A DNA stretch of 64,000 bases from positions 14,136,001-14,200,000 of the forward strand of contig CDPCPM010000029.1 of NCBI GenBank assembly GCA_976551045.1, read 5' to 3'. This DNA is from Glaucostegus cemiculus (lineage: Eukaryota). The notes beneath the pieces are model-generated. The model ran no database searches and was not told the origin of the DNA. It saw only the letters and a list, made by a program, of their open reading frames with translations. Both the position numbers and the translations under genes were made by a program. Of this stretch, positions 2,482-59,560 are shown in pieces; the stretch's first letter is position 1; each line of letters begins with the position of its first letter.

Positions 2482-2620
2482 ACATTCTGACGAAGAGTCT
2501 TCCACCTAAAATGTTAATTCTGTTTCTCTTCCCACTGATGCATCCTGGCCTGATGAATATTTCCAGAATTTTCTGTTTTTATTTTAGAGTTCCAGCATCT
2601 GCATTTTAGTTTTTGCTTCA
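2482..2620 (+). mobile_element. Penelope-type terminal repeat fragment with degenerate hammerhead motif
   Basis: CTGACGA at 2487-2493, a degenerate stem II, AAAATGTTAA, then the family body (CCTGGCCTGATGAATATTTCCAG...CCAGCATCTGCA). Confidence 0.65.
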
Positions 2621-2699
2621 GTATAGTTGCATTGTCAGGTTAGCCATGGTGGTCATCACTGAGGTATGGGAAATACTGCCAGAAGGCCTTCAGCCAGGT

Positions 2700-3360
2700 T
2701 CTCATGCCCGCACCAATATTCCTTGCCTGTCAGGGTCATATTGATTCTGAACTTGTTTGCCACAGGATTTTCCTAAGCACCTGAGACTGATCTCTGTCAT
2801 GTCTCCCAATGTGCTGCTCACTGCGCCATCAGAGAAGTCACCCAGCACCACATTTGCAGGGAGATGATTTCAAGGTACTTTGACTTCAGTGTTGGCAGTG
2901 CAGACACAGGGGTTTGCCAGCGTTTGCTGGCTTCCATGACTGCAGGCAGTCATTGACTGCACTCATTCTCATCAGGTCTTGTGTTAATAACCCAGACGTT
3001 TTCATCCCCTCGGTGTGCAAATTGTTGTCGATCACCAGAAGAGTTTCCTCACGGTGATTGCCAAGTTTCTGGGAAGCACGCATGACTGGGGTTATTTTCA
3101 GTGGTCAGCACTGGCCTAAGGGATGAAGCCTGGAAGACAAGGGCTGTCTTTTACTTCCCTGGCTCCTCACACTACTGATCTCCCCAACCACAGCAAATGG
3201 GTGCAAGTACAGTGAGGGCAGTGTGGGATGTAGAAGCAGAAACTTCATACAGTGTCCTGCTTGCTGCAAAACTTTGCAAATAGCCAGTGCCCAAGGAAGT
3301 GAAGGGGGAACAGAAGGTGGAAACTGAGGAACAAGAGGGGCAGGAGGAAGGCTGAAGCTG
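2700..3360 (+). pseudogene. PIF/Harbinger (HARBI1-like, DDE_Tnp_4) transposase remnant
   Basis: Collinear motifs across frames: SQCAAHCAIREVT (about 2800-2845), AVIDCTH (2946-2966), FHPLGVQIVVDHQKSFLTVIAKFLGSTHDW (3000-3089), LEDKGCLLLPWLLT (from 3130), VSCLLQNFA (about 3252-3278), then an acidic tail. These match Harbinger GAIDCTH, FHSLNVQLVCD...FPGS.HD, LGDKGY...WL.TP and ACC.LHNF. Confidence 0.8.
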
Positions 3361-3614
3361 CCAGGATGGGATGACCAGATTCAGCATCCACATGATGTAA
3401 GGGACTCCCAGATAGAGAGCTGCTTCTCACAAGGAACATATTAAATCATAGTCTGCGCAGCAACCCACAGTATGCACTCAAACAACCTAGGACCCAAAGT
3501 GATGCTGAATAATCCATCAAAAGCAACTTTGCCGGACTGCCTGAGGTGATTACATGATATTCTTTTCTAATGTGCTTAATTACTTAGGTTACTTAGGTTA
3601 TGTTGTTACTTGAT

Positions 3615-3960
3615 TATGCTCTGATGAAGGGTTATGGATCTGAAACACTAATTGTTCCATGATTGGGGCATGGAATGCGCTGCCTGGGGCGATGGTGGAG
3701 GCAGGTACATCGGTCAAATTCAAGAGATTGCTAGATAAGCATATGGACGAATGTAAAATAGAGGGATATGTGGGAGAAACGGTTAGATAGTCTTAGGCGA
3801 GGTTTAAAGTTTGGCATAACATTGTGGACCAAAGGGCCTGTATTGTGCTGTTCTACGTTCTATGTTCCCTCTCCACAGATGCTGCCTGACCTGTTGAGTG
3901 TTAACCACATTTTCTTCTTTTGCTTCACATTTTCAGTGTTTTGCTGTTTTTGCTTAGTTA
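3615..3960 (+). mobile_element. Penelope-type repeat (hammerhead core) interrupted by a CR1-like 3' fragment (about 3659-3866)
   Basis: CTGATGAAGGGTTATGGATCTGAAAC at 3621-3646; the repeat body resumes at about 3867 (CTCTCCACAGATGCTGCCTGACCTG); the intervening LINE tail ends TTCTACGTTCTATGTTC. Confidence 0.75.
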
Positions 3961-5849
3961 TCTAAATATTTACTTACTGCAGGCAGCTTCTTACTGCAGG
4001 GCACAGCAATCAGATAAAGTTTGCATACTTTTCAAAAACAAAATAATGGTCTCTGTCCAGCTAAAAAAAAGTTCAATTCCATTAGCTCCAAATGGTTGGA
4101 ATCGATTGAAACTTGCTGTTCTTGGTGTACAGTTTGAGAGTGTGGCTAGTTTTATGGATTGATCTGGCCATATACCTATTTCTAATAATGAAGATGGCTG
4201 GTTTGAATTGATTCCAGTCAAAAGCCTGAGCAGAAAATGAATAGGAAGGGATTGCTCTTACTGCCCCCTTGATTCCTACCTCTGCCCACCTCTGTTGCCA
4301 CAATGTCCAATCTCCCATCATCCATCAGTGCCACAAAAGCTCTCTCCCCTGGTAAAGATTGCAAAAGTATTGGAATAATTTTCTTTAAATTTCCAAGAAT
4401 TTTGCAGTGGTTTGGTTGATTTCTGCTGAACTATATTAATCAAACTAAAGTACCCTGATTGAAACTATGGATGCTCTGATAATGAGAGAGGGATGTTATT
4501 CAGGGCTTAGGGCCCTGCTATGTGTCAAATAACAAAATGAGATGTTTTACATATTCCATAGCAGGCAATTAAGACTTAGATCTAACATGTCATACAAGAA
4601 ACTGCATCACAGTTTACCCTTACTGAAGTCCGAAATACTTAGCTTGAATCTGTAGGGGAGGCTAATCCAGACTTTGATTTCAACTAAGAGTGCTGCCAAT
4701 TGACCTAAACTACTTGAATATTTGCTTTAGTCACAAAGTAATAAAGTGGAGTTTATTATAATAATAACAGAAGTTCAACATTTTAAGTTGACATCTGGCT
4801 GATTGCCTTGCCTTAAAATCGTGCAATTTAATAGCTTGTATCACTACAGCTAAAAATATCTAGACTTCCAAAGAAAGATTAATATTATTAAAATTAATAT
4901 GCACCAACCCATTAACCAGATGTCAAGTTTGAGCAAACTTTGTGAAAAAAGTTATTTTTTAATTATCTACTTAATACTTGATTTATGTTTCTTTTTGTCC
5001 AACATTAAAAATATTTCATTAATTTCAGAAAAGAAACATCTTGCACAAGTCAGTTTAAACATAGTGACCAAAGAATTTTAAAATGCAAGGAAACACAAGC
5101 TAAGCTGGCACTGCACAGTGAACTTCCATCATCATTTTTATTTAATGCAGAGGTAGGTATAGATGGAGTTAGACGTGTAGACCCCACATGGTTATATATT
5201 TTAAAAAGCACATGATAAGCGCAAATGAGCCTACAGGATTTCTTGCCATGAGGGGAGATCTTAAAGGAGTCCTTCAGGTATTGGGAATGTACCGTTTGAT
5301 CTAATCGGGAGCAACAGCAAAGAAAGGAGAAAGACCCACCTCCTGCCCCATTGTATGATTGGACATTGCAGCAGCAGAGGACTCTACTGCCCCATTGTAC
5401 TCCACCCAGCCCTACCGGGAACACTCAGGGACAACTGGTCCATCAGAGGAACTTCCATGGTCTGCTTTAACAATAGACCACCTATAAGGGCTGTTATATA
5501 ACAATTTAGAGCTGTTCTTTTAACACAATCTAGCAGATCCGTGCCACAGTTAAGCACTGCTTTGCTACTTAAAGCCAATGCTGTTACTTCAGTGCATAAA
5601 TGAGGTTCAGTGATGTAGCAGCAGCATCAAATTTGTGTTGCATGTTTATTGGCATTGCTGCTGCATACCCACTTTCTTGCATGCATTGAAGCCAGTGATT
5701 CATTTTCAAATGGGGTATTGTATGCACATGGAAGTGGTGACTGCATCTTTTGTACTGACATTCAAACATGTCACACATATTATATTTCCAGGTCAATAAT
5801 GTTGATACTGGAGACATGTCAAACACACAGCAAAATTGTGTTGTTATGT

Positions 5850-5952
5850 TATTTTATGGGACGAGCACCTGAGGAGGACGGTATCTCGCTCCTATGCATA
5901 CTATGTATGTATATGGTTGTGACAATAAAACTGATTCTGATTCTGATTCTGA
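5850..5952 (+). mobile_element. Young 5'-truncated non-LTR retroelement 3' end with (CTGATT)n tail
   Basis: AATAAA followed by CTGATTCTGATTCTGATTCTGA; about 83 bp identical to the reverse complement of 61330-61412. Confidence 0.75.
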
Positions 5953-6649
5953 AAATAAATCCTTCATTACCCCAAACTGGGTACACATATGATGATACAT
6001 AACAGTGGGACACTGGAATAGAACGACCTGAAGACAAAACTAATTTTATCATTTGCTTTCGTTATGATAATGTAAGTAAACTGGATGTCAATTAGATGCT
6101 CTTAATTAGCTCACCTGTCTATCAGGCCTTACCAATTTTTCTTGATGTGAGGGAGTTTGTGTGGTGTGTGCAGGGTTGGCAGGTTGACAGGAGAGGTAGA
6201 AGGAATTGAGTGGGGCGGCTGTGTTCCAGATTTGTTTTACATGGTCAGGAGATGTTCTTCCCACGTCACAAGGAGCATTTCAGAGGCTTTAGGATCTTTT
6301 TAGAGCTGGAATGGAAACAAACACATTCCATTTCAGGTAGCAATCAGAGCCTCCAAGCAAATGTCTTTGACCAATTAATTAATAGCTGGAAACCTTGGCT
6401 CATGGTTGTGCTCATTTAAGATCCCCAAAACATCTACAACTGTGTTATATTTAGATATCATACTGTGTCAAGAAAATGGTGATAAGATATAACTGAGGAA
6501 TGATTGTGATGTTGAACCTGGTGAATTGTTTCAGCCGGGTCTTCTTAAAGGTTTTTGGTGAGGTCCTAACATTTTTTCTTTATCTATTTAGGAAACTGTG
6601 AAGCTGTGAAAATCATGAGGGACTGGTGATCAATCTTTGCTTTGGAGTC

Positions 6650-6945
6650 AAGGTTTAAGGTGAGAGGGGAGAGATTTTAAGGTTAGAGGGGGGAGATTTA
6701 ATAGGAACCTGAGGCGAAACTTTTTCACCCAGAGAGCAGTCAGTATATGGAATGAGCTGCCAGAGGAAGTGTTTGACATGAGTACATTAACAACATTTAA
6801 AGGTACTACAGGTACATGGGTAGGAAAGCTTCAGAGGGATATGGGTCAAAAGCAGACAAATGGGACTAACTTAGATGGGAATCTTGGTTGACATGGACCA
6901 TTTGGGCTGAAGGGCCTGTTTCTGTGCTGTATGACTCAATGAGTC
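6650..6945 (+). mobile_element. CR1/HER1-like LINE 3' fragment
   Basis: TTTAAGGTGAGAGGGGAGAGATTT...TGGAATGAGCTGCCAGAGGAAGTG...GAAGGGCCTGTTTCTGTGCTGTATGACTC; has an internal tandem duplication of about 23 bp at its start. Confidence 0.8.
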
Positions 6946-7057
6946 TAAAACTGTATTAAGGTTGGCATGATCTCTCACCATAATGAAATCAGAAAATTGG
7001 TGAAAACCTTGGAGGAAACTGGTTAAAGCACCATCCTGTGAATGACCAGCAAAATAT

Positions 7058-7180
7058 AACTGCAAATGTTGGAAATCTGAAATAAATATATAAAGTGCTG
7101 GAGATACGTTGAAAGTCAGGCAACAAATGTGGTGAGCAAAACAGAGCTAACTTTTCAGGTTGATGACCTTTCATCATGAA
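7058..7180 (-). mobile_element. Penelope-type terminal repeat with degenerate hammerhead motif
   Basis: Minus strand reads ATGATGA-AAGGTCATCAACCT-GAAA-AGTT-AGCTCTG followed by the family body. Confidence 0.7.
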
Positions 7181-8182
7181 AATTGAGAAAAAGTAGAAAT
7201 CAAACATGTTTTAGGTTGCAGAGAAGGCAGTACTACTGTAAAAAGGACTGTTCCACATATCCTCATATGGACATGTTGGGCCCACATGCGCTTCCACAGC
7301 TACATCTTTGATTTGGAGGAAGTGGGTGGAGTTAAAGGAGAAATTGTTCAATGTGAGGACAAGTTCAACCAGACAAAGGGGGGTGGTGGTCGAGAGGCAT
7401 GAGTTGGCAATATGCTGAAGTAAGCCCTGGCAGAACAGAATGGACTTAAAACCAATGTCATTGTCACCATTAAAATGGCAAAGCAGTTTCAGTACCGAGT
7501 GTAATGGCAGTCTGTGATGGAAGGCAATAAGCGTATTTGATTAAATAGAGATTAATAATCTAGGCAATAAATTATAAAATGTAAAATACAATCTATGATC
7601 TAAGAATTTACACTGAATTTAAGAATTCAAATGGGAAGTGCAGGATACATTAAATAATTGTAAATAGTAAAATGAAATCAAATATTCTGAAACAATTTGC
7701 TGGCATTAGATTCTTTCAGATAAGATTTAAGAAGATTGAGTGGAATTGTTCAATCAAAAGGTGTAGCTTGTGTGAATAGGGAGATAATGCACTTGTATTT
7801 TACCTTCAAAACAAGACTAAGGGAACCTCTCCAGAAGTAATAACACAACCTGTAACTTTCTGGTAATTTTCACATAAACAGAAAATGAGGAATCTGATCA
7901 GCAGAAGATGAGGAATTAAAATCTGGCCATTCCCAATGGTGACTTCATCAGTAGAGATTCCAGAACTGCTGCATTTAGCATGTCAAAAAATTGAAGATTT
8001 AAACCAATCAATGTTGACACATCAAAACCATTGTATTATCTAAAAACCTATGATGAAAAATTTAAAAAATTAAAAAATCTTTCTAACTACAATGGTTGAG
8101 GCTTATGTTAAATAACTACTAGTTTCACTCATAAATTAATATCACATAAAATCATACATAGAATAATCATACATAAAATGAT

Positions 8183-8315
8183 GTCCTGATGCAGGGTTAC
8201 AACCCAAAATGTCAACAATTGCTTTCCCCCTAGAGGTGCTGCTTGACCCACTGAGTTCTTGCAGCAGATTGTTTGTTGCTCCAGATAACAGCATCTGTAG
8301 TCTCTTGTGACTCCA
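8183..8315 (+). mobile_element. Penelope-type terminal repeat (second subfamily) with degenerate hammerhead motif
   Basis: GTC-CTGATGC-AGGGTT-AC-AACCC-AAAA-TGTC then GGTGCTGCTTGACCCACTGAGTTC...CAGCATCTGTAGTCTCTTGTG. Confidence 0.7.
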
Positions 8316-11300
8316 TACATTGATGTTTCTTTGTCCATAGGATAAGTTCAGGTATTGGACACGAGATTCACTGGATAAATGAGTAGGGATTAAGTTTACA
8401 GAGGTGAGCTGATCACTTTCACTAATGTGAGATTACCATGCCTTACTGCTCTGCTCCACACTTGATCTCACCTCAATAGTATTTCTTCACAAATTTATGT
8501 ACTTAAAACTGAAGCTGTACTTTTTGAACTGTTCCTCAATGAATAAATGGATTATGTACAAGAGAACTACATACTGCAAAATGAATGAGCAGAAGTTTTG
8601 GAAGATGTAGTGTGTCTGATTTTACAGTAACCTAAATATTTTGAAGTATTTCACTGAGACTTTAGTTTCACAAAGCACTTTCAAAATAAAGGAAAGCTCA
8701 TTTTTCATGCACTGAAAAAAAATACATCAAACATACTCCTAGTCTCCATCTACAATCATTCATTGTAATAGAAAACTGAAGTAATCAGTCAATACTTCTG
8801 ACAAATAATTCCAAATAATATTTTGATTAGTCACTTCAATAGTAATAAAGCCTTAAACATGGCTTATCTAAAATAATACTGTTTTGAATGCACCCTGGTT
8901 TTTATATCTGTTGTGTTACTGCAATAAAACCAGGCTATTGCAAGTCTGTAGGCTAAACTTTATTGGTAATGAGACCCATTGTAAGCTCCTGTAGTTGCTT
9001 CCTTCCAACCATTCCACGTATGCCGCAGGAAGCAATATTGCTTATCTTTTATCTGAAGTTGATTTCTTGGTTAGTTTCTTCACCTGAGTATTCAGTCATC
9101 CTCTGCAAAGACGAATCATCCTCCTTGTTGAAAAGATCCCTGTCAAATAAAGAACATTTTAATTGAAAAGCAATGAGTTTATTCAAATCCAGGATGCAAG
9201 TGGATACGGTATTTTTTTTGTAAATAAATTCTTTCCTTTTGCTCTTTTGGCTTCCTATATTAATTTGATGGAGCCTGATTCAGCTGAGAAATTGAGGGGG
9301 CAGGGTGCAGCTGAATCTTGATATCCTCATGATTGTTGTCAAGGCCATTCTGTGAATCACCATATTGCAAATGTATATCTGTATAACAAAGAAAGGATGT
9401 GCTATGAGCATAGGATCTTCTCAAGAATATTGGAAATGCACCCTCAGAAGGATGTTGAATCGAAAAATGCATCATTCTGTCACTACTATTATCTCCCTAC
9501 AAGTAAGCAAATAACATTGTAAGAAAACTGAACATTTCAGTCTTTACTGAAGTTTCAATATCCTTATCAGATGATCATTTCAACTATTCTCGAATATAGT
9601 TGCAGACAACTAGAGGTCTTTTAGACTTGGGCTGATAGAGCTATTATAAGATTACTGGATTGTCCATGGCAGATTTTGTAAAATTGGCAAGTAAGTCCAT
9701 TTGAAAAGTGATATTGCAGCTTTAATCTGATTTGTTCATACTGGGCAGGGAATGATTTAACTCATTGCTTTACTTTAGCACATGACCCCGATATAACCTG
9801 AAAGAGAAACACTAAGTAGCCATCCCATTTCTGCCACTGTAAATACCAAGATATGTTCTTACTATTGTTTCTAACATTGCTTGACATCTAAATTCACTTT
9901 GAATTATTGGTAAATTGATTTTGTTGTTGTTAGAAACTTGCTAAGGAAAAGCATGGGTTCTTTGCATTTATCTAAAAGACAACTAGGATAATTTGCCCTG
10001 GTTTAATATCCCTGAAATGTTTTTTGGAGGATACTGTCTGCAAATATTTCCTTTGCAAAGCTCCTGTTGATATTTGTATCTTATTACTTTTCTCATATAA
10101 GATTGACTGATAGATTCTAACAAAAAATCAGATTTCAGTATATTTTATTGAACAAAATTGAATATTGCAGGCACTAGTTCAATCGTTTTCATCACAGTGG
10201 AAACAATAAAGATCCAACACACTTCAACTTAGACATGTATCAAGGAGCACCATGTATTGTGAATTGAGGAAACAGGTAATTAAAGGAAAATTGTAAGATA
10301 TTACCTTCAAGTCTGTATGAGTTGATAAGTTTATTTTCTTTTTGCTTCATATGTTTTTAGCTAAGAGATATTTACCAAAAGAAAATTACTGTAGGTGTAG
10401 TGGATTTCTGCATCCAAAAGCAATACTGCAACAATCTGTTTGTTTTATTTTGTCAGTTTAACAATAAAGTGCCTGTAGTATTGCCACAAGATATAGAAAT
10501 AAATGGATTTGCTATACATGTGAGGCAACACTGCCCATGCAGCTTTAAGTGAAGGACGATAAAGTGCATTACTTGTTTGTTTTTACTTTGATTAAAGTAA
10601 CAAATGATTAAAAGCACTTTTGCAATTTTTTTCTCGAGGATCAATAAATGTTTTTTTTTAACGTTGGCAACACTGTTAATGCATTTTTATTAAACACAAA
10701 TCTTAATGTTGACAAAACAAGTTTAGGATTCACTCTATCATTTGAAACAGAGGCGGCAATATTTACTTAGGCTTTACATTCTCTTATATATCTGCAGACT
10801 TTCTACTAATAATCACCTTTGCTGCATAGTCAGAGATAACCCTTACTTTGCCAGATAACAAGAGATTTAGTATTGATTTTTGACATCTGCCTAAATTACA
10901 AGATTCTCTCTCCCCCTTTATCCAGAAAATGGTAAACAATATTATGAAGCAAAAGAAGAGAAATAATCAGATTTCTGGGAAGATTTTACTGCTTTGGAGG
11001 CTAGCAGTGAACGATGTGTGCTTTTATGGAGATGGACGATGAAAAGCAAAATAATATCTCCCAACTCTGATTGTTCAAATATATTCTACAATACGGAGAG
11101 CTGCAAGCAGGCTGGAGCAGGCATGGGGCAGGAAGGTTAAGTAGAGAAAAAGGCACAATACTTCAGATTGGCAGCAGACTGCAGCAAGAATAATCTAATC
11201 AAAACTAAATTCAATTATCTATTCCCAGGGCAGGCTCCTGAGGCTGCTGCACTGAATACTAGGATAGCTCCTCCTAGACATTTTTCCTAGTCAAAGTTGC

Positions 11301-24254: not shown

Positions 24255-24800
24255 CTTTTGTTTGGCGCTTTCACTGAACATCTTTTCCCCTTCTATATAG
24301 CTAAAATTTAGTAGTTTTCACACAAAAAAAAACAACAACAGACGGAGATCATTTATCATCAACGATAGTTTGGCAGTATGACAACTGTGTCTCTGCTTTA
24401 CAGTGACAAAGACTGAATCTGCTATAAACTAAGTAAAAAAAATGAAGGAACTTGCGAAGCAGAAAAGTTTGTGTATAAAGAAAGTACTGTTGCTCTATTC
24501 AAGGCGGTGAATTGAAATGGATATTTACAAATAAAACCAGCTGAAGACTCTGGTCAATGCATAAAAGCTGCAAAGCAGCTTAGATGGACATGCACTGTGG
24601 CTAATATTATAATTTTCATAATGCTCTTTTATGTTGTGTTAGACTCCTCCGGTGAGGAGCCCGCAGAGCTGGTCAAAGAGTCTTTGAGAGTGAGCAGAGC
24701 CGGGCAGCTCGGAGCTGCGAACCCCCCGCCGGAATGAGTGGCACTGCGTGCCCCAGCCGGGGCTGCTCTTCCTCCGCCTGCAGCACCTCGGCGGCGGCAG
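24255..24800 (-). ncRNA. Candidate first exon of a minus-strand lncRNA (position fits human LINC00682 between PHOX2B and TMEM33)
   Basis: GC/CpG-rich 5' part (24640-24805) and perfect donor AAG|GTGAGT (intron starts at 24254); CCAAT (24827-24831) and TTTTAAG lie just upstream. Orthology is inferred from synteny only. Confidence 0.45.
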
Positions 24801-24809
24801 CGGTGTCCT

Positions 24810-25050
24810 ACTTAAAATGCGCATTTCCAATGGCAAATCACTGCCTCACTAAACACCACAACATTTTCCCCCCTTCCCTACTCTGCCTTTCCTCTGTATT
24901 TTGGGAAACTCTTCGTCCCTCTTTCTCGTTGTCATCTATTCTCTGGCATTTTTTTTCTCCTTTTAGAATTCACTTTTTTTTTGGCTGCTCTGTCCCAACT
25001 CCCTCTGCTTCAAGTTTGACTCTAATCTGGTTACTCAAATCTAATTAGAC
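24810..25050 (-). promoter_or_regulatory. Candidate promoter of the minus-strand lncRNA
   Basis: 12-bp palindrome AAATGCGCATTT (24815-24826), CCAAT box, and paired PHOX2-type sites TAATCTGGTTA (25023-25033) and AAATCTAATTA (25037-25047). Confidence 0.4.
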
Positions 25051-32037: not shown

Positions 32038-32170
32038 ACAAGTTCAGACAAAAGGTCATTGACCTGAAGCGCTAACATTTTTCTCTCTCCGCAGATACTG
32101 CCTGGCCTGCTGAATATTTCCAGTATTTTCTGTTTTTATTTCAGAATTCTAGCATTTGCTGTATTTGTTT
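32038..32170 (+). mobile_element. Penelope-type terminal repeat with degenerate hammerhead motif
   Basis: AGTT-CAGACAA-AAGGTCATTGACCT-GAAG-CGCT-AAC followed by the family body. Confidence 0.7.
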
Positions 32171-37129: not shown

Positions 37130-37233
37130 TAGCAATAAAAACAGCAAATATTAGAAACACTCAGCAGGTCAGGCAGCATCTGTGGAAAGAAAAAGAGTTA
37201 ACTTTTCAGGTCCGAGACCCTTCGTCAGAATTC
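37130..37233 (-). mobile_element. Penelope-type terminal repeat with the best-preserved hammerhead core in the window
   Basis: Minus strand GAATT-CTGACGA-A-GGGTC-TCG-GACCT-GAAA-AGTT-AACTC then CCACAGATGCTGCCTGACCTGCTGAGTGTTTC. Confidence 0.8.
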
Positions 37234-41640: not shown

Positions 41641-43503
41641 GCATGTTCATGGAAAGCATTCAGAAAATTCTAAATTAGGGGTTATTTTTAACAGAGTTAT
41701 GATACTTGTGAATATTTTGGAAACAATTTATTGTTGTACTCACTTTGATAATTAATGAGTGTATTGATTTATATTAATTTTGGGGGTTATAATTGATATT
41801 TAGAAATGTTTTTGATTTATCCTTTTCATGGTTATGTTTAGTTAAAGTAACATTTAAGCGCAGAACTTGAGATTTGTCATATGTGAAGCCTATTGCAGTG
41901 TGTATCATATCAGGGGCACATAGTTTATATTGTAATGTTGTGATTGAGAGATCAGAAAGGGAATATATTTATGTTTACCTAAGTTTTAATAGTTAACTGT
42001 ATATTTGTAAATAATTAGAAGTTAATTGAAATAATAATTTGATAGATGCAGATATTATTGTTATGGATTTATTTCTTTAAAAAAGCAGCATATCAGTTGT
42101 ACATATACCTTTAAAAGCTTGTGTATCATGTGATCAGACCTTTGATACTTTGTTGTATCAGCCATTGCCACTAGTTGGGTGAAGCTTGCCGTCAAGACAG
42201 AATGTTTGGTTACAAGCCTGTCTTTGTTACTTGCCTTACTGAGTAGCAATATATATATATAAAAATGCTTGCTACGTTGGTTGTCAAGGCAGCTGAGCTC
42301 TTCCTAGTTTCAGGAAGATGTGCATTTATGAGAAGGTTATTCAAAGGGTTAAATGTGTACACTTCCTGACAAATTGCCCCATCATTCATTCCATTTCCAT
42401 GTAAGCCCTTGATGATCATATATGATTATTAGAATACTTATCAGTACCTTTCTCTATGCAATAATGTGATCATGGAGTTAAATTATGCTTCAGGCTTGAA
42501 AGTGAAATGACATACTCTTGCATTTTTAAAATCAACCCTATCAGTGTTGAGAAAAACTGTCTATTGTATATTGTGGTTTTCTGTCTTTTGTGGCATTATA
42601 AGGAGTATTCACAACATGCTTCAATTGGTTTTAGGAATCTATAACAGAGGCTGGGGAAGACAAAAGGATCTGTTTATAATCCTAGTTTGTAGCACCCTGA
42701 GAACGAAAGTTACAAGTACAATATCTTCAAAGGTATTGAAATTGTGTACACTATGTTGTTTTCCATATGTGGAAGACAAATACAGATCAAGATTTTTTGT
42801 GTCATGTCAGAAGAAACCAGAGATTATAGAGAACAAGCCTATTACATGGATTTGTGCTGTTTCTTTTGGAATTGTCTCTTTTAATATTTCTAACACAGTA
42901 AGTGTAAATATTGTGAAAGCATTAAAAAGAAATATAGTCTTTGGAGGCATGGATCTAGTAAACAGTCTGAGAGGCACAGTTTAAATTCACTTTTACCATT
43001 TCATTTCTTCACTCTTAGTATTATTTCTTATCTGGCACAGATGTTTTCTTTCTGAAATTGTAAGATAATTTTCACAGCCTGTCGAAAAGTGAAATATGAA
43101 CAGGTAGGTGTCTCCCTACAACCTCTGCAAATTCTAGAATTTCAGCTCATCTCAATCTAAAGGTGGGTTGTGGGATTTTTACATTGACTAACTGGTTCAA
43201 TATTCCAATGGGTTCTTTACCTTTCTTGATAATGAAGAATTATGAATGTTCCATGATGTCTGAGGCACCAGCCAGGAACAGAGAAAAAAGACTTGAAGTT
43301 AGTCTCCAGGCAACATGGTGAATATTTTAATAACACTACTGCATCTTCTTTGGCAGTCTTCATGGTAAATCAGAGGATATGTTGCTGCTTAACAATAAAT
43401 TTAGTTGTGCCATATGAAGAGTAAAATCAAGACTGTTAATTCACAATGACCGAAAAGACTTTTTTATCCAAAAGTATTCCCGTTTTTAATCAATCTACTG
43501 AAA

Positions 43504-44192
43504 GTGAATGAGCAAGTACAGCAGGCAGTAGCGAAGGCAAATGGAATGTTGGCCTGTATTACAAGGGGAATTGAGTACAAAAGCAAAGAGATTCTTCTGC
43601 ATTTGTACAGGGCCCTGGTGAGACCACTGCTGGAGTATTGTGTACAGTTTTGGTCTCCGGGATTAAGGAAGGATATCCTGGCTATAGAGGGTGTGCAGCG
43701 TAGGTTCACAAGGTTAATTCCGGGGATGTCAGGACTGACTTATGCTGAGAGGTTGGAGAGACTGGGTTTGTGCACGCTAGAATTGAGAAGATTAAGAGGG
43801 GATCTGATTGAGACATAAGATTATTAAAGGTTTGGACAGGATAGAGGTAGGAAATATGTTCCAGATGTTGGGGAAATCCAGGACCAGAGGGCATGAGCTA
43901 AGAATTAAGGGTATGCCATTTAGGACAGAAGTGAGGAGAAACTTCTTCTCACAAAGGGTGGTAAATCTCTGGAATGCACTGCCTCAGAGGGCAGTGGAAG
44001 CCAATACACTGGGCACTTTCAAGGAAGAGTTAGATAGGTTTCTTATAGATAGGGGAATCAGGGGATATGGGGACAAGGCAGGAACAGGTTATTGAGGGTA
44101 GATGATCAGCCATGATCTCAAAATGGCGGAGCAGACTCCAAGGGCCGAAAGGTCTACTTCTGCTCCTATTGTCTATTGTCTATTGTCTATTG
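43504..44192 (+). mobile_element. Young 5'-truncated CR1/HER1-type LINE
   Basis: Near-intact ORF2 C-terminus (LYRALVRPLLEYCVQFWSP...RRLRGDLIET / KIIKGLDR...RRNFFSQRVVNLWNALP), one frameshift near 43815, and a (CTATTGT)n tail. Confidence 0.93.
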
Positions 44193-44506: not shown

Positions 44507-44525
44507 TGACCACCAGGTGGTATTT
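44507..44525 (+). promoter_or_regulatory. CTCF-like motif (forward orientation)
   Basis: TGACCACCAGGTGGTATTT; the core CCACCAGGTGG matches but the 3' end is imperfect. Confidence 0.4.
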
Positions 44526-44721
44526 AGGTGCAAAGTGAGTTTTAGTTTAGGGTATTGTCTCAGATTTTGCTTTAGTCATGGTGATGAAATGACTTGAGAA
44601 AATGAGAGCAAATTCCAGGTTTCTCTGTATATTTACCATGAAGTTCACAAAGTTGCTGTTAATGATTCAGCACAACATCTTTTATGTATTTTCAAACTAA
44701 CGTCCTCTTATGCAAACAAAT

Positions 44722-44845
44722 AAAACTGCAGATGTTAGAATCTGAAACAAAAACAGAAATGCTGGAAAAACTCAGCCAGTCGACCAGTGTCTGTGGAAAG
44801 AGAAACCAATTTATGTTTCAGGGCAATGACCTTTCCTCAGAACAG
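44722..44845 (-). mobile_element. Penelope-type terminal repeat with degenerate hammerhead motif
   Basis: Minus strand GTT-CTGAGGA-AAGGTCATTGCCCT-GAAAC-ATA followed by the family body. Confidence 0.7.
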
Positions 44846-46489
44846 ATATCCTTTCCATGGATATTTCAAAATATATGTGGTTTAAAACAAGATGATTTAT
44901 TTTTAAAACTTTAGACTATATCAGCTTCTACCTTAATCATATGAATATGTTCCAATCTTTATTTAAAAAGTGAATTTAAAAATTGTGGTTTTATTTTTCT
45001 GGAATGCTGCCTGTGATGATTCTTTAATGTGATTGGCTGCACAGTCAGATTAATGGCCGCCCAGCTGCAAGATGCTAGTGATCCTGTGAAACAATTGTAG
45101 TGGACACTGCTGAAAAGGACGTGTTTGCCACTAAGATCACTAAATTTTTATGGGTAGCTTTCTTCAAGGCCAGCAGTAAGTGTTGTTTTGCCGGTGACTA
45201 TAAGTAGTGAACCCTTTTGTTCTGTTTCTGTTTCACAAATATGAAGTACCAAGAACTATTTGGAGGGAAATTCACAGAAGACAGAAGATGGAAATTAGTT
45301 ATTTGGCCTAACCAATCCTTGTCAACTGCCCCCCTTTTCAGATCAACTCATCGTGTAATTCTACAGGAAATCTGCTGGTAAAGATTAAATTAAAATCAAC
45401 GATAATACTTGCCTGAAGTAAAACTTCAATAATTCAATTTGAATCTTGCTCAAAAATCTTTTGAAAAAGGCAAAGAAAATCAAATCCCCACAGATTGACA
45501 AGATATCAAATGGTTGAAATCTGTCCACATATTATGAAGAAAAAATGTCAGGTCCATGCCAAATTGAGTCAAAATTAACAATTAGTTTTTATATAGTTTG
45601 TTTAACCTAGTAAAATGTCTTAAGTCACTTCATTGCATAGAAATTATATCAAACAAACACTGGCACTAAGGTATAAAAGACAGTGAAAGAAGCAAGGGTT
45701 AATGAAGATCTTAAAATAGGGGTAGACATAAAATTTTAGGAAGGAAACTCCAGAACAAGGTCTCGAGGGCTGAAGGCACAGCCCCCACTGGTGTAGCAAA
45801 AGAAAATCAGAAAAACACAGTACAATCATCCTATTCTAAAATGTTTTCTTTCAAACGTCTTTTGGTACGATTGAAATGTCAGTTTCTGTTGTCAAAAGGT
45901 GGACAAGTATTTTAATAATACATTTTGAATAATTAATCAAATAATAGTTAGACATGACAGCACATTGCAAAAAGTGCAGTCACTGAAGCCTTTCACCTGT
46001 TGATGTAACTTGTTCTTCACCCTATTCATACAGTAAAGCTTGGCACATTGGGCTGAACATCCCCTTGACCTCTGCTATCACGTTTTGTAAAGATTCAGAA
46101 AATATGGTGAAGATTTTGCCGAGAAAAATGGAAAAACGGTGTTAAAAATTAATTGTTAAGCTTAAAAAATGTTTGTTTCCTGAGTCCTGTGACTAGAACT
46201 GGATGCATTCTAAAAATTAGAGCCAGCCCTTTGTGGAATTCAAAAACAACTTTGCATGCAAAACCTGGGGAGTTTGGAAAACCCTTTCACAACTTGCTAT
46301 TGACACTCGATGAACTTTAAATCTTTAAAGCACTTTTTTTTCTCTCTGTGAAGCAAAGATATTGAGGGATAATGTGAAAGGCTGGGTTCTGAAGGGGGTG
46401 AATGAGGGTGGTGAATCTCTGTAGTTCTCTACCCGGGAGATTTAAGGGCTGGATGGGCCGAGTGGCCTTCTCCTGCTCCTGTCTTGTAG

Positions 46490-47290
46490 AGTTGGGAGCT
46501 CGGCGCCAGACGCAGCCGCCACCGGCTAAGAAACGGGTGCAGGAAACAGATCTGATCCGGGATGCCGGGCGGCCACACCGCCGGTGCGGTGCACGGCCGG
46601 GCAGCTGGCAGGAGCGGGACGCCCGGTCGGGGCAAAGGCGGCACCAACACGACGCCCATCGCGGCCGGCAGGGGGCGTCCGGCGACCACGCGCCTGCGCA
46701 GAAGGGGACGCCGGCCTGGCGAGGGTAGGGGGAGCGCGGAGCGGGCTTCGGCTGCCGGGAGCGGAGCGGCCGGAACCGGAACGGGAGTGGGAGCCGGCGG
46801 CGTGGGGTGGCTCAGGTCCTCCCTCCTTCCCTCACTCACTCACTCGGACTGTTGGCGCCACTGCGTGAGCTGCAGGTAGGGTTACCCGAGGTCGGGTTGC
46901 CGAGGAAACGCCGCGTCAAGGGATGGAACTTTCTAGAGCGGCTCCCGGGAGGTCGGAGGTCGCTCACCCGGTCTCTGCTGGTGGAGCCCGGGGGGGTGGG
47001 GGCAGGGTGTAGGTCCCATTCAGCCTCTTGTCACTGGAGAAGTCGGGGGGGTGGGGGGGGGAGGGAGGTACGGGCCGAGGGTCGTCGGCATTGCACCGGG
47101 GGCACGGTGCAGACACGCTCCTTCGGGTCGGCGAAGGCACCGAGCCTTGGGCCTCGTCAGTCTCACGGTGGGGTGGGGTGACCATTGATAGGTGGCACCG
47201 GTCGAGGTCGGGAGGTGTCTGCGGGTTTGGGCCCACGTTGCGGTGGTGGTAAAGACAGGGTGCTGCACGGTGGCGGGTGGAAAGGTTGCC
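46490..47290 (+). promoter_or_regulatory. TMEM33: CpG-island promoter of TMEM33
   Basis: Dense CpG; NRF1 motif GCGCCTGCGCA (46690-46700); tandem ETS-like CCGGAACCGGAA (46770-46781); lies 4 kb upstream of the first coding exon. Confidence 0.85.
46790..46875 (+). other. TMEM33: TMEM33 non-coding first exon (5' end approximate)
   Basis: Donor CAG|GTAGGG at 46875/46876 inside the CpG island; the ATG exon has its own acceptor at 50858, so an upstream exon is required. Confidence 0.65.
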
Positions 47291-47349
47291 TCAAAGGAAG
47301 TGGCGGTGTCAGGTCGTGGACCTGTTGGTTGTTATTTACAACATTCCCT

Positions 47350-48840
47350 GTGTTCAGATGTCCCAGAGGATTGGAAAATTGCAACTGCTACCCTGGTATT
47401 CAAGGAAGGAGGGAGACAGAAAGCAGAAAACCGAAAACATTCGACATCAGGAGTATGCTGGAAACCATTAATGAAGGGCTAATTGCAGGGCATTTTGAAA
47501 ATCATAAGACAACCAAAGTCAAATTGGTCTTATGAAGGGAATTGGTGTGACATATTTACTAGAGTTCTTTGAGGGTGTAACAAATGACGTAGTGTTTTTG
47601 GATTTCCAGAAGCATGGAGTAAGAAGCCACTTTAAAAGTTACAGCGCAAGATAAGAATGCATGGGTTTGGGAGTAATATATTGGTATAAATAAATGTGTC
47701 ATTTTGGATTGGCCATAAGTAACTAGTGGGGTTCCACAGGTATCAATGCTTTTGCCTCAACAATTTAATATACAGTGTCGAACATCGAACAGTACAACAC
47801 ATGGACAGGACCTTCGACCCACTCTGATGCCATTCTAAACTAATTCTGTTAGTCTGCTGAAGGTCCATCTCCTTCAGTTCCTTGCCTGTTCACGTGTCTG
47901 TCTAAATGCTTAAAAGTTGCTATCGTATGTGCTTCTACCACTTTTCCTGGCAGTGCATTCCAGGCACCTACTGCCCTCTGTAAAAAAAAACTTGTTTCTA
48001 AATCTCCTTTAAACTTGCCCCCTCTCACCTTAACCTATGCCCTCTAGTATTTGACATTCCCATCCAGGAAAAAAGACTGACCATCAACCCTATTTGTACC
48101 TTTCAAAATGTTTTATATTTCTATGTAGATGACCTTTGATGATCTAGTTGAAGGGACAAAGCGTTCTGTAGCTAAATTTGGTGGTAATACAAAGGTGTAC
48201 TTCCCTTAGTGGGGATAGCTTTAGAATTCAGAGTGAGATGAGAAGGAATTTCCTTTCTGAGGTTGTGCAGATTGAGAAACTACTTGTTTACTTTCATAAG
48301 CTTTAATACAATGTCTGGAGTTTTTAAAGAGTTAATACAATGTTTATGTAAAATCCATTTTAAGGCAAAAAAAAGGAAAGATTGTTCTCCATGGCTGTGA
48401 GGAGAACTTGAATCTAGAACAAGAAAAAAGGAAAAAGTTCACTAGATTGATTCCTGGGATGGCAGGTTTGTCATATGAAAGATTCAGACCTTGCCTATCC
48501 TCTCTTGATCTTAGAATGAGAGGTGCTGTCATTGTAGCATACAAAATTCTTATGGGTCTTGACAGAGATCAGAGTCTGAAGCATCACATAGTCAGCCATT
48601 TAGGACAGAAGAAATTGCTTCACCTGGAAGATAGTGAATCTTTGGAATTCTTGGTCCAAGAGGGCTGTGGAGGTTCAGTCACTGAATATTCAAGGCAGAG
48701 ATCAATAGGTTTTTAGACAATGAAATTGTGGGATATTGAATTAGTGCAGGAAAGTAGCACTGAATTAAAAGATCAACTGTAATTTTATTGAATGTCAGAG
48801 AAGACATAAGGGACAAATGGCCCCCTGCTTCTCCTTCTTA
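47350..48840 (+). mobile_element. Decayed CR1-like LINE with a nested antisense CR1/HER1 fragment (about 47775-48125)
   Basis: PEDWKIATATLVFKEGGRQKAEN (CR1 reverse-transcriptase N-terminal motif) and KFTRLIPGMAGLSYER; the inner fragment is a reverse-complement HER1 tail. Confidence 0.8.
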
Positions 48841-49179: not shown

Positions 49180-49540
49180 TTGTTTTCCCTCATTCCTGTG
49201 GCCCCCTCCCCCACCCTCATGACCTGCCCACTCCTATTCCCCACCTCCTTCTCTGTATTCCATGGCTTACTCTCCTCTCCTACCAGATTCCTCCTTCAGC
49301 CTGTTGCCTCTCCACCTATCACCTCTCAGCTTCTTGCATCATTCCCTTTCATCCATCATCTCCCTCTCACCTGGACTCACCTATCACCTGCCAGTTTGTG
49401 CTCCTCCCCCTACCTTTTTATTCTGGCTTCTGCCCTCTTCCTTTCCAGTCCTGGTGCAAGGTCTTGACCTGAAATGTTGACTCTTTATTTCCCTCCATGG
49501 ATGCTGCCTGATCTGAGTTCCTCCAGTATATTGTGTGTGT
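49180..49540 (+). mobile_element. Longer Penelope-type terminal repeat with pyrimidine-rich arm and hammerhead-like motif
   Basis: About 270 bp of C/T-rich arm, then AGTC-CTGGTGC-A-AGGTC-TT-GACCT-GAAA-TGTT-GACT (49447-49482) with stems I and II intact, then GATGCTGCCTGA. Confidence 0.75.
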
Positions 49541-49829
49541 TATATATAATATTAACATTTCGGTGCTGAAAGTAAAAATGGCTTATTGCTTTGTCACTGA
49601 GGCATTCTGAAATGTACATTGCAACCTGTTTATTTTCTGCTTAACTGTCATCTCTGGAGCAAGAAAATAGAATTTTTTCTTGACCTTCTGAGTAACGTTT
49701 TTTCATTTCAGATTTCAGCATCTAAAATGTTTTGCATCTCTAGTCTATCTCACAGTTCCAGGATTTTTTTCTTTTTCTCTTCTGTCTTCATTCATCTTCT
49801 ACTTGCATCTCCAGGTGTAACATTTTATC

Positions 49830-54330: not shown

Positions 54331-54518
54331 ATTATATGAGGCTGCCAATTTTTACCAACGTGCTTTGCTGGCAAATGCTCTTACCAGTGCACTTCGACTA
54401 CATCAGCGTTTACCTCACTTCCAATTCAGCCGTGCTTTTCTGAGTCAGGCCCTGCTGGAAGACAGCTGCCACTATCTCCTTTTCTCATTAATCTTTGTCA
54501 ACTCCTATCCAGTTACTA
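54331..54518 (+). CDS. TMEM33: TMEM33 coding exon 3
   Basis: TTTTACAG| LYEAANFYQRALLANALTSALRLHQRLPHFQFSRAFLSQALLEDSCHYLLFSLIFVNSYPVT; 188 nt; followed by the U12 donor GTATCCTTT. Confidence 0.97.
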
Positions 54519-56107: not shown

Positions 56108-56175
56108 TGAGTATTTTTCCAGTTTTTCTATTTTCTCTGTTACATGCTACAGCCTATACAAAGAAAATTTTTGAT
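56108..56175 (+). CDS. TMEM33: TMEM33 coding exon 4
   Basis: (M)SIFPVFLFSLLHATAYTKKIFD |GTAAGT; 68 nt. Confidence 0.95.
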
Positions 56176-56959
56176 GTAAGTATTGCTGTTTTAGAAGAAA
56201 CACCTTCCTTCTGCTACTCTGGTGAAAAGTATAGACATTTTGTTAATGTGAAACATGTTCCTTTTTTTATATTACAAACTTCAAAAACTGTTTCAATAGT
56301 TTGATTTTCCTTTTTCCAGAATGAGAGAGAAAGCTGACTGGGGTGTTATCCATGGCAGCATGTGATAACTTTAACACCAGTCTCTAATCTGACGGGCTTG
56401 TGTTGATCATTTTTAAGATGTAGTGGCTAAAGACAAGCTTTATTTAATCATATTACCTTGGAGTTTTAATGACTATCCTTTAGAACAAAGCTTACAGGAA
56501 AAATGTTAATTGACAAATATAGAAGAATACTATTAAATTCCAATGCTAATCACTCCTTGAGGTACATAAGGCCTCTTCCCACAAAAGTCCAGATCTTATT
56601 TTGGAACCCCACATTTGTGCAGTTGTTTCTTCTATTGTGATGTATCAAATGAATTTCTTTTTTGCTTTTGTATTTGAGGCTCAGTTAATATTATGTATAC
56701 TCTCAAATGTTTTTGTACTATACTGTTAACACTATTGGCTTCCAGAATGAAGATAGTCTATTAAAACTATAAGATCTTCAAAAAAAAATGCAAGTAGAAG
56801 ATTTGCCCAATCATTTGATTTTCTCCTTCAATGGAAAAATACTCTTCAGGTGTGAAACTGAGAATATAAAGGAGGAGGTGACTTTACATTATTTGTCATT
56901 CAGTAAGGAAGCATGATATCTTGGAAAGTTCTTCAAATGAAGCCATATAAGTAGAACTT

Positions 56960-57740
56960 GGGAACAAAAAGGGTCTGATCAGTTTGCTAGGGTGTGCTAC
57001 GAGCTTCCAATTAACGAGAGATAGAGGAGTGGGTACATAGGCAAATCACATAAGTATTCAATTAAAAAGATAATAGTAGGGGATTTCAACTTTCCTAACA
57101 ATTTGGGATTGCTTTATTGTGAAAGGATTAGAAGGCAAAACTTTTGAAGTATATCCAAAAGAGCTTTTTGAGTCAGTATGTAAATAGTTCTACTAGAGAA
57201 GAAACAGTGCTGGACCTAATCTTTCAGGATGTAGCCATGGCAGTGGGGTGAGGTTCAGTGGAAGAGTATCTGGAGATAGTGGTTGTAATACGTTTTTAAT
57301 AGTTATAAGGACAAGGATAATCCAGAAATTAAGATCCTAAATTAGGGAAGGTTCATTTCCTATCAGACGGGAGCTGGTAGAAATGAGCTAGGAGCAGCTA
57401 TTTTCTGGTAAATCTACATGAGACCAGTGGAAATTAATCAAAAACTAAATTGAGAGTTCAGGTCCAATATATTCCTATAACAGTGAAAGGTGAGGCCAGC
57501 AAGTCCAAAGAACCCCAGATGTCAAGGGATATGAGGGTTGAATAAAGGGGAAAAATAAGTAGCTTATGGCAGATTTAATGAATTGAATTTAGGAGAGGCA
57601 TTGTAATGAGCGTGTGTCTGTGTGTGTGGCAGGTATTTATTAAAAAAGGCAATTAAGACAGTGGGGGCACTAAATAGTACTGGTGGGCAAGATGGAGGAA
57701 ATTCCAGAAGCATTTTATAAGTGGGTTATGGGTAATCGAG
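56960..57740 (+). mobile_element. Decayed CR1-like LINE endonuclease region
   Basis: IIVGDFNFP (ATAATAGTAGGGGATTTCAACTTTCCT) and PTRE..VLDL-like motifs of an APE endonuclease. Confidence 0.7.
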
Positions 57741-57959
57741 GAGGATTGCTTTATTGCTAGTAGGAATCTGTTCCTTAGTTTGAGAAGTTAACTGCAACAG
57801 TTGGAAGTTTGGGAACCACATGATTTCAACATACCTTGTTTTCTACATGTTGGGATTTGAGTGCTAATTGACGACTAAATAGTTTTCAAAACCACAAGTG
57901 ACGAGCGTGTCTCCAATTGAGAATCATCTTTTTGGCTTCTGTTAATTTTTTGGGATATA

Positions 57960-58570
57960 GTTAACATTTTTTCCACCCTTAAGTGCCCTTGAAGATGATG
58001 GTAGTCCACCTTCTTGAACTGCTACAGTCCTAATGGTAAAGATATTCCAATAATGTTGGGTAGAAAGTTCAAGGATTGAGACTGAATGATGATAAAGTTT
58101 GGCAATGTACTTCTGAGTCAGGGTGGGTGTACAGTTTGAAGGAGAACTGCACATGGTAGTGTTCCTTGGCACCTTTGCCTTCTGTTGTTGATACTATGCA
58201 TCTAGGCAAGTGATGAGTATTTTATCACTCTTCTGACCTAGATAGTAGAACGATTTGGGGTGTTGCAAGGTGATTCACGTACTGCAGGGTATTTGGTCTC
58301 TGACCTCTTGTCGACATGTTGGATTGCTGCATGCAGACAGTGAATTTTCTGCTTTTCTGAAGAACTGTGAATGGAATTTGTGCAATTGTCAGTGATTGTC
58401 CTAAATTTTGACCTAATGGGAGGATGTAAGTGATCTAAGAAGCTACCTTGAAGAACTCCTGCAAGGGTGCCCTGACATCTCCCTTGGAGGGATGTACAAA
58501 TCCAACCATTTTTGTTCTTTCCCTTGATACTTACTGACTTTGGTTTTACTAGGGGTCCTTGCCTTTACTT
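57960..58570 (-). mobile_element. Decayed L2/CR1-type LINE fragment
   Basis: Reverse complement resembles the outer element and tail at 41370-41640 (GCCCTTGAAGATGATGGTAG...CTTCTTGAACTGCTACAGTCC). Confidence 0.55.
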
Positions 58571-59427
58571 GGCAAGAGATTTAAAAATCCACCATGTGAC
58601 TTAGTAATGTTGTTGTCTCACATAGTTCCAACTAATATCTGACCTAATTTTCCAGATTCCAGATGCTTGGATTAATAATATAAATCATGTGTTCTAATAC
58701 CATTGTTGCAATTTGAAAGTCTGAATTTGTATTTTTTTAAGTATACAAAGCAAGATGATGAAAGTGGCTGAAAATGTTATTGTCATTAAAAAATACAACA
58801 CATTCAATTGTATTCTTTAGGAAAGAGATTTGCCATCCTTGCCTAGTGTAATCTGTACATGACTCTAGCCTCACACCAAATGTAGTTGGCTCTTAGCACT
58901 TCAAAATAGCAATCATTGCATTTTGCCTATAGCCAATTCACAGGGTGGTTTCCTTATCAGAGTAAGTTGGGATGGACAAAAGAATATTGACGTTCTGTGA
59001 TATTTGCATCTGGGGAATGATTTTTTTAACTATTTCTTTTAATGTTATATGTGTCCCTGCAATAGGTTAAATTGCTTCATTGTGTGATTGTGTTAGTTGT
59101 ATAATTTGAGTTATGATGGAAGAGGCACGATTTGTCATCGGCTCTTCCCCATTCTCATGTTATGAGTGGACACTCGAAAATCAATGCAGTGTGCTTAATG
59201 TTCCAAATGATGTTCTGCTGAGAAGAGAAAACAAAGTGAAAGTGAAGACATTTAAAACCACAAGTAGTTTTGCTACAGTGGCCTTTTCCATAACAGAAAT
59301 CGGATATAATGCGATTGATAAATTGGGAACGCTATTTATATTACATGGGGCAAATTGGTTATGATACGAATTTGATCAAGAACAAGAGAACCACTTAAGA
59401 GTAACTTTGGAAACTGAAAATCAGAAA

Positions 59428-59560
59428 AATCAGATGCAGGGACTCAACCTGAAACATTGACTGTGCCTTGGATTCCACAGATGCTGCTCAACCCACTGAC
59501 TTCTTCCAGCAGTTTATTTTTTGCTCCAGATTCCAGCATCCACAGTCTCTTGTGTCTCTT
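59428..59560 (+). mobile_element. Penelope-type terminal repeat (second subfamily)
   Basis: CAGATGC-AGGGACTCAACCT-GAAAC-ATT-GACTG then CCACAGATGCTGCTCAACCCACTGA...CCAGCATCCACAGTCTCTTGTGTCTC. Confidence 0.7.

What the first reader, a model, noticed from the sequence alone, without database searches (positions are those of the whole stretch)
2482..59560. Dispersed family of short repeats carrying a minimal type I hammerhead-ribozyme core
Seen: about 10 related copies (2482, 3615, 7058-, 8183, 32038, 37130-, 44722-, 49447, about 50285, 59428) share one boundary. Their consensus is AGT(T/C)-CTGAYGA-A-(A/G)GGTC-loop-GACCT-GAAAC-GTT-(A/G)ACT. This equals stem I, the CUGANGA box, stem II, the GAAA box, an almost loopless palindromic stem III (ACGT), a GUH cleavage triplet and stem I'. 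Stem I covaries between subfamilies (AGTT/AACT versus AGTC/GACT). Established: Penelope-like elements and retrozymes carry minimal type I hammerheads thought to cleave as dimers, and an extra A after A9 is tolerated in some natural hammerheads. Inference: this genome holds a high-copy Penelope-derived non-autonomous family, about one copy per 6 kb here, whose copies usually begin just at the ribozyme. Every copy here has at least one core or stem substitution.
Basis: partly seen in the sequence, partly recalled or inferred. Interest (0 to 1): 0.7.

Follow-up and report, generated by a model that had tools for sequence, protein, structure and literature searches.

The report
Penelope retrotransposon stubs, start-site hammerhead
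These short repeats are the worn, dead ends of a known kind of jumping gene that carries a miniature self-cutting RNA motif, so they are mostly ordinary, but many begin at the motif's first letter with an extra G, which suggests they are copies of the capped, uncut start of the element's RNA.

Summary
The repeat and its minimal type I hammerhead are real: all 10 copies are there, and about 1 hit per 5 kb genome-wide. It is not a separate non-autonomous family. It is the terminal repeat (pLTR) of autonomous Penelope-like elements, likely Neptune: it lies 216-705 nt behind a GIY-YIG C-terminus in 15 of 20 loci, ahead of the ORF start in 4 loci, and shows the class's inverted partners and two 3' ends about 35 nt apart. 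Short and long copies share subfamilies and do not cluster apart. No window copy has an intact ribozyme. One point is worth keeping: 5' ends pile up at the first bases of stem I (39 of 102 at risk, p<1e-14), not at the cut site (p=0.24), and carry an excess non-element G (1,021 G vs 511 A; background 0.88). That fits run-off copying to the cap of uncut RNA (inferred). The scan noted this family and the cap reading before, in this and other genomes; I tested both here. Cleavage itself is untested.

The parts
2485..2613 (+). pLTR stub with tail; hammerhead C3 at 2487; G12 lost, stem II damaged
3618..3658 (+). 5' half of a stub (hammerhead, C3 at 3621; U16.1 lost), split from its 3' half by another repeat at about 3659-3865
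   Evidence: model positions 8-50 then 49-144; insert matches repeats in other loci
3866..3961 (+). 3' half of the same stub
7049..7226 (-). pLTR copy with about 49 nt of upstream untranslated region; C3 position 7177 mutated to A
7271..7423 (-). fragment of the element's reverse transcriptase, same strand, about 45 nt upstream of the 7049-7226 copy
   Evidence: tblastn E 3e-11 and 3e-8 against ORFs of L056 and L055
8183..8313 (+). pLTR stub starting at -3; A9C core variant, G12 lost
32041..32166 (+). pLTR stub starting at -4; A-U form of pair 10.1-11.1; four core changes
37130..37230 (-). best-kept stub: all core letters and stem II intact, C15.2 changed (palindrome broken); ends at the first 3' site, no tail
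44718..44845 (-). pLTR stub; core letters kept, G16.2 changed, stem II mismatch
49180..49555 (+). longer 5'-truncated copy: about 270 nt of untranslated region plus hammerhead (C3 at 49451; A6 and A9 changed)
   Evidence: 74.8% over 409 columns to ORF-linked copy L059
50252..50364 (+). decayed copy with about 38 nt upstream region and an internal deletion; C3 at 50290
59431..59558 (+). pLTR stub starting at about -1; U4A and A9C variants

Best explanation
The repeats are separately inserted, decayed end pieces (pLTRs) of autonomous Penelope-like retrotransposons, likely of the Neptune type, each carrying the class's known minimal hammerhead, and the shortest class likely arises when the element's reverse transcriptase copies only the first 100-135 bases of its capped, uncut RNA. 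Shown: in full elements the unit lies behind the GIY-YIG end of one ORF and directly ahead of the start of the next; copies end at one of two 3' sites (+92-100 or +125-146 from C3); their 5' ends are spread, with a strong peak at -8 to -2, and those ending at -4 carry an excess G; about half abut an inverted piece of the element. Inferred: Pol II starts at the A of an initiator-like YCAGTY, which is also the first base of stem I; the element's protein primes at an internal site of this RNA (as shown in vitro for the anole element); priming at the 5' pLTR runs off the cap and gives a stub, priming at the 3' pLTR gives ordinary longer truncations. The ribozyme is carried along uncut; genomic copies then decay and are likely inert.
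For: ORF link: 15 of 20 loci (13 of 18 without seed and duplicate; about 5% expected) and 10 of 12 longer loci; Pfam RVT_1 E 3e-7, GIY-YIG E 0.013; Atlas 0.96 to HTH_animal/GIY-YIG/RVT_1 clusters; DKG in 16 of 30, CX4CxxC linker in 6 of 12. Partial tandem L055, inverted copies L053, L056. Read-through into the ORF N-terminus in 4 of 30 loci. Two 3' ends in 26 and 21 of 50, the PLE tail of PMC8557442 and PMC11167929. 5' peak 39 ends in 565 copy-bases vs 26 in 4,425 upstream and 81 in 6,720 downstream (p 6e-21, 5e-15), absent in simulations, present in unique-flank copies alone (17 in 565). G excess 1,021 vs 511 against 0.88 background with 30 unlike flanks; control site 39 G vs 52 A equals background. 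Untemplated 5' G is attributed to the cap for L1/SVA (PMC3287187 passages). Hammerhead mutants do not affect insertion in vitro (PMC11167929).
Against: No RNA 5' end was observed: three RNA-seq runs show no pile-up of starts at -4 (fragmented reads, mostly read-through). The G excess is modest once limited to purine-preceded junctions (about 449 vs 363, p 0.016 against the control; hand count of the first 100 rows), the first control also showed 68 G vs 42 A but was mostly deletions and fold-backs, and the tally in loci in hand is small (7 of 15 vs 3.8 expected). In D. virilis the start site lies 46 nt ahead of an intron whose end, not the start site, abuts helix I (PMC2377424, PMC4209133). 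The clade rests on motifs, no tree. No intact full-length element was found.
Confidence: 0.62

Rival explanations
1. Same parent element, but the 5' peak is a stall or joining hotspot: reverse transcription stops at the folded or protein-bound hammerhead, or the self-complementary stems favour microhomology joints there; no RNA start is involved.
For: End rate is already raised across the core (+4 to +11 and -1 to +3); several inverted junctions use GTC/AGTC microhomology with stem strands.
Against: The peak is as strong in unique-flank copies; a stall does not predict the G excess; the enzyme would meet and open the 3' strands first (inference).
Confidence: 0.17
2. One reading: a non-autonomous, SINE-like or retrozyme-like mini-element that starts at the ribozyme and amplifies from short masters in trans.
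For: Very high copy number; sharp 5' peak; a start site inside the unit would let stubs be transcribed; tandem retrozymes derive from pLTRs (10.64898/2026.07.22.740005). Old subfamilies are mostly short (13 of 17 in B).
Against: No clustering of short copies (low power on about 97 nt); same boundary in every subfamily with long copies; no tandem arrays in the window; stubs stop at the priming site and lack the downstream ORF sequence that the anole protein needs to bind (PMC11167929; transfer inferred).
Confidence: 0.1
3. The boundary is a 3' splice site: a pyrimidine tract plus CAG sits two bases ahead of the core in all subfamilies, and spliced RNA is the template.
For: Acceptor-like sequence in 5 of 5 subfamily consensuses; the D. 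virilis intron ends at helix I (PMC4209133).
Against: No shared upstream exon among flanks; many stubs keep CAG; exon ends predict C or A, not G, at -5 (recalled consensus); no such joint among those listed in RNA-seq (99 joints not shown).
Confidence: 0.07
4. Stubs are copies of ribozyme-cleaved RNA, so the boundary records cleavage.
For: Slight excess of ends at +26 to +30 among unique-flank copies (7 ends, p 0.05, window chosen after seeing data); window copy 15696 begins there.
Against: The main peak is about 32 nt upstream of the cut site and keeps the whole core; overall cut-site rate not raised (p 0.24).
Confidence: 0.04

Closest known systems
Minimal hammerheads (min-HHR) in pLTRs of metazoan Penelope-like elements (Cervera and de la Pena 2014, PMC4209133; parts 1-2 of 4 read)
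   Same: Type I fold, short helix I, extra base between 9 and 10.1, G10.1-C11.1, palindromic 15.2-16.2, many variable families, mostly single motifs on truncated elements.
   Different: Copy number here is about two orders above the 4,000-9,000 given for coelacanth and Xenopus (different counting: profile hits vs descriptor hits); helix II is 4-5 bp; abundant U4A and A9C variants; the paper does not describe a 5'-end peak at helix I in the parts read.
Endonuclease-positive PLEs, Neptune clade (Craig et al. 2021, PMC8557442; passages)
   Same: RT then CX2-5CxxC linker then C-terminal GIY-YIG with CCHH; DKG; 5' truncation, partial tandems, inverted 5' copy, 30-40 bp tail.
   Different: No tree against reference elements was built; Nematis also has a (reduced) linker finger.
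Poseidon element of Anolis carolinensis (Frangieh et al. 2024, PMC11167929; parts 1-2 of 4 read)
   Same: Two internal priming sites that define the tail; hammerhead at the pLTR-ORF junction; uncut RNA is the template.
   Different: There the ORF starts inside the hammerhead; here the likely start codon is about 165 nt behind C3. Activity is untested here.
Non-LTR retrozymes (Li et al. 2026 preprint 10.64898/2026.07.22.740005; parts 1-3 of 5 read)
   Same: pLTR-derived, type I hammerhead, present in a chondrichthyan in that survey.
   Different: Defined as head-to-tail tandem units each with a hammerhead; the window copies are dispersed single stubs.

Membership tests
Minimal type I hammerhead of PLEs | CUGANGA and GAAA boxes, U16.1-H17 | tested here: met
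   Met in subfamily consensuses A-D and 112 exact genome matches vs 0 control; U4A in subfamily E; not met in 8 of 10 window copies.
Minimal type I hammerhead of PLEs | Helices I and II with compensatory change; extra base 9/10.1; palindromic 15.2-16.2 | tested here: met
   (pairs 2.1-1.1 and 10.1-11.1); few independent events.
Minimal type I hammerhead of PLEs | Self-cleavage, as a dimer or with protein help | not testable with these tools
   Folding puts the active-type dimer 14-21 kcal/mol above a stem II-stem II duplex; no assay.
Rfam hammerhead families | Covariance-model match | tested here: not met
   No hit at E up to 10 in the window or in 5 loci.
Endonuclease-positive Penelope-like element | One ORF with RT and C-terminal GIY-YIG linked to the repeat | tested here: met
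   all ORFs seen are broken; GIY-YIG below Pfam's cut-off.
Endonuclease-positive Penelope-like element | pLTR, partial tandems, inverted 5'-truncated partner | tested here: met
   107 of 208 copies abut inverted element sequence.
Endonuclease-positive Penelope-like element | Optional 30-40 bp tail | tested here: met
   26 and 21 of 50 subfamily C copies end at two sites about 35 nt apart.
Neptune clade | CX2-5CxxC linker, CCHH, DKG | tested here: met
   6 of 12 and 16 of 30 decayed copies.
Neptune clade | RT phylogeny with reference PLEs | not tested
   No reference set fetched.
Non-autonomous mini-element or SINE | Short copies form their own lineage | tested here: not met
   Nearest-neighbour test p 0.70, 0.24, 0.53 (low power).
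Non-autonomous mini-element or SINE | Target-site duplications | tested here: inconclusive
   0 of 10 window copies; 5 of 47 unique-flank copies vs 0-4 in shuffles; old copies.
Non-LTR retrozyme | Tandem units each with a hammerhead | tested here: not met
   Window copies are single and kilobases apart; no genome-wide search for arrays was run.

The most novel reading that the evidence does not exclude
In these vertebrate Penelope-like elements the hammerhead is the very first thing in the capped RNA: the initiator and stem I share their first base, roughly a quarter of all copies are strong-stop-like cDNAs inserted directly, and cleavage about 32 nt in would strip the cap, making the ribozyme an off-switch rather than a processing step; subfamilies with U4A or A9C cores still amplified massively.
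Probability: 0.4. Interest if true: 0.55.

Novelty: new member of a known kind. Interest (0 to 1): 0.3.

Why it matters
The family itself is a known arrangement (2014) and these copies are debris. What could matter is the record in the junctions: how PLEs are transcribed and what their ribozyme does in cells are open questions, and hundreds of thousands of stubs point to a precise RNA start at stem I and to uncut templates. That gives a cheap test (5' RACE, in vitro TPRT with capped RNA). For annotation, such stubs should be filed as PLE ends, not as a new SINE or as active ribozymes.

Tried and rejected
Rfam scan: no hammerhead family hit. Cut-site boundary: not enriched overall. Hidden subfamily as cause of the 5' peak: rejected, flanks are unlike each other and not pyrimidine-rich (54 of 56 under 0.65; leave-own-out simulation gives 0.75 or more). 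Shared internal deletion defining a derivative family: breakpoints differ among 8 copies looked at. TSD search weak. First G control unusable (deletions and fold-backs). RNA runs: no indexed RNA holder listed; three raw runs of one study, from an organism not shown to be this genome's, hold many family reads on both strands, 79-89% running on into unlike sequence, with no start pile-up or splice joint listed at the boundary: uninformative on the start site. Dimer folding gave no support. The 2017 paper on dimer cleavage was not held; I know it only from its citation in PMC6765202. A Pfam scan of other window ORFs failed on a frame error and was not repeated. No protein homologue search, structure prediction or RT tree was run.
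Full report
Observation. The ten copies are in the window as described. A profile made from 53 copies elsewhere in the own genome recovers 12 window hits, 78 hits at 20 bits or more in 400 kb of hand-picked stretches on 40 contigs, and none in reversed sequence: one per 5.1 kb, about 556,000 hits in 2.85 Gb (bootstrap 371,000-749,000). Three exact 30-32-base motifs of the 3' part occur 1,130, 8,858 and 10,102 times with 0 controls. The host looks like a cartilaginous fish; that is recalled resemblance plus earlier scan notes, not tested.

The ribozyme motif. Five subfamily consensuses (A-E) all give stem I, CUGANGA, an extra A, a 4-5 bp stem II, GAAA, palindromic ACGU and GUH. In 99 copies chosen by their 3' part, stems pair in 78.9% of cells against 14-39% for slid partners; 2.1-1.1 switches C-G/U-A (51/15) and 10.1-11.1 G-C/G-U/A-U (39/39/5), while the overall covariation score is reached by 28 of 500 shuffles and the count of doubly changed pairs is not above shuffles. 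So covariation is real but rests on few events. Core plus stems are intact in 1 of 22 unselected and 13 of 75 motif-selected copies and 0 of 10 window copies. Position 4 is A in 22 of 99 copies and position 9 is C in about 9 (my count), shared changes that must have been in active masters (inference). Rfam does not recognise the motif. The monomer fold lies 0.9-3.4 kcal/mol above the minimum; the active-type dimer lies 14-21 kcal/mol above a stem II duplex, so folding neither shows nor excludes dimer cleavage.

The parent. Upstream of long copies lies the C-terminus of a GIY-YIG domain. That peptide has 37,584 first-look candidates, 150 scored; the repeat follows it on the same strand at 216-705 nt in 15 of 20 loci, 13 of 18 without the seed and one duplicate, and in 10 of 12 longer loci. 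The broken ORFs match RVT_1 (E 3e-7) and weakly GIY-YIG (E 0.013), and PLE-type Atlas clusters at 0.96; DKG is seen in 16 of 30 and the CX4CxxC linker in 6 of 12, the Neptune pattern of PMC8557442 (passages). Partial tandems and inverted copies occur. In 4 of 30 loci the repeat reads through into the ORF's N-terminus, likely start codon about 165 nt behind C3. In the window itself one copy carries 270 nt of untranslated region and another sits 45 nt behind an RT fragment.

The ends. Subfamily C copies stop at +92-100 (26 of 50) or +125-146 (21 of 50): the optional tail that PMC11167929 (parts 1-2 of 4) traces to two internal priming sites. For 5' ends I took 208 copies anchored on the 3' motif (43 from the unselected sample, 160 from motif loci, 5 from the window; 73 from core- or ORF-selected loci left out). 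89 stop inside or behind the core, 56 at -8 to +3, 63 further up. The rate at -8 to -2 is 39 in 565 copy-bases, against 26 in 4,425 upstream and 81 in 6,720 downstream (p 6e-21 and 5e-15; unselected sample alone p 4e-7); simulations with constant truncation show no peak; the cut site is not raised (p 0.24). The peak holds for copies with unique flanks (17) and with inverted partners (21); 107 of 208 abut inverted element sequence. Flanks are not a hidden subfamily.

Why there. The peak's mode (-4/-3) is the A of YCAGTY, kept in all subfamilies and initiator-like (consensus recalled). If that is the capped start, run-off copies should gain a G. Genome-wide, copies ending at -4 have G before them 1,021 times and A 511 times, against a background ratio of 0.88; of 30 G copies 17 have unique flanks, 12 varied inverted partners, 1 direct. 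A control site at about +36 gives 39 G and 52 A, equal to background 0.75; the like-for-like purine-preceded ratio at -4 is about 1.24 (p 0.016; hand counts of the first 100 rows). Against: a first control gave 68 to 42 but was mostly deletions and fold-backs, and the tally in loci in hand is only 7 of 15 vs 3.8 expected, other end positions not raised. PMC3287187 (passages) attributes such a G in L1 and SVA to the cap. RNA-seq could not test the start. D. virilis differs: start 46 nt ahead of an intron that ends at helix I (PMC2377424 section 15 and passages; PMC4209133), which keeps the splice rival alive at low odds.

Mechanism. Shown: identity as PLE pLTR, two 3' sites, 5' peak, G excess, decay. 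Inferred: start at stem I; priming in the 5' pLTR and run-off gives stubs; priming in the 3' pLTR gives long truncations; cutting of both DNA strands by a protein dimer (shown for the anole element) gives head-to-head pairs; the template is uncut. Untested: any cleavage.

Prior knowledge. Minimal hammerheads in PLE pLTRs, mostly single and on truncated copies, were described in 2014 (PMC4209133). Nine searches listed no paper on a cap-ended stub class or on this shark or ray family, but the library lacks most subscription papers, the 2017 dimer paper was not held, I read no supplements (the 2014 supplementary alignments and the 2026 preprint's closed tables may list chondrichthyan cases), and Repbase was not available. 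Other papers seen as passages only: PMC6155905, PMC6765202, PMC3846280, PMC3088659. The scan's own notes record this family 50 times and the cap reading in four other genomes; I formed and ran the G test before seeing the cap notes, but they are not independent evidence.

Verdict. Real, a new member of a known kind, locally inert; interest 0.3, carried by the testable start-site reading.

Noticed in passing
L095:467-506, L089:9511-9550, window 59431 and others: A large subfamily has A at core position 4 (22 of 99 copies) and another has C at position 9 (about 9 of 99): shared changes in the catalytic core of lineages that amplified widely.
   Followed up: partly
all five subfamily consensuses, -30 to -3 from C3: A pyrimidine tract ending in CAG two bases ahead of the core looks like a splice acceptor, as at helix I in D. 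virilis Penelope; two more acceptor-like AGs lie downstream.
   Followed up: partly
repeat positions about +47 to +52 with +113 to +118: A conserved 6-bp helix closes the 3' part between the two 3' end sites; may be the priming or binding structure.
   Followed up: partly
L211, L194, L205, L208, L213: ORF pieces joined straight to a 3'-end copy at different points; in L211 the joint is at -5, the stub boundary, suggesting template switching after run-off.
   Followed up: partly
G000:C2:704034-704166 and G000:C5:17255399-17255531: Two head-to-head pairs on different contigs have the same 69-base gap between the motifs.
   Followed up: no
window 43450-43818 and 48336-48716: Open frames that look by eye like the end of a CR1-type LINE reverse transcriptase (label recalled, not scanned).
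   Followed up: no
window 46300-47500: Very G+C-rich stretch with overlapping open frames, possibly a CpG-island promoter of a host gene.
   Followed up: no
window 24656-25048, minus strand: Glu/Lys/Ala-rich coding-like stretch broken by stops, possibly a decayed gene copy.
   Followed up: no
L245 and L248 (contig C524): 99% identical over at least 1.5 kb, with three more matches on the same contig: a recent segmental array that includes a PLE fragment.
   Followed up: no
L003:1433-1541: A head-to-head pair scores weakly as a microRNA precursor (mir-3914, far below its cut-off); such fold-backs could yield double-stranded RNA.
   Followed up: no
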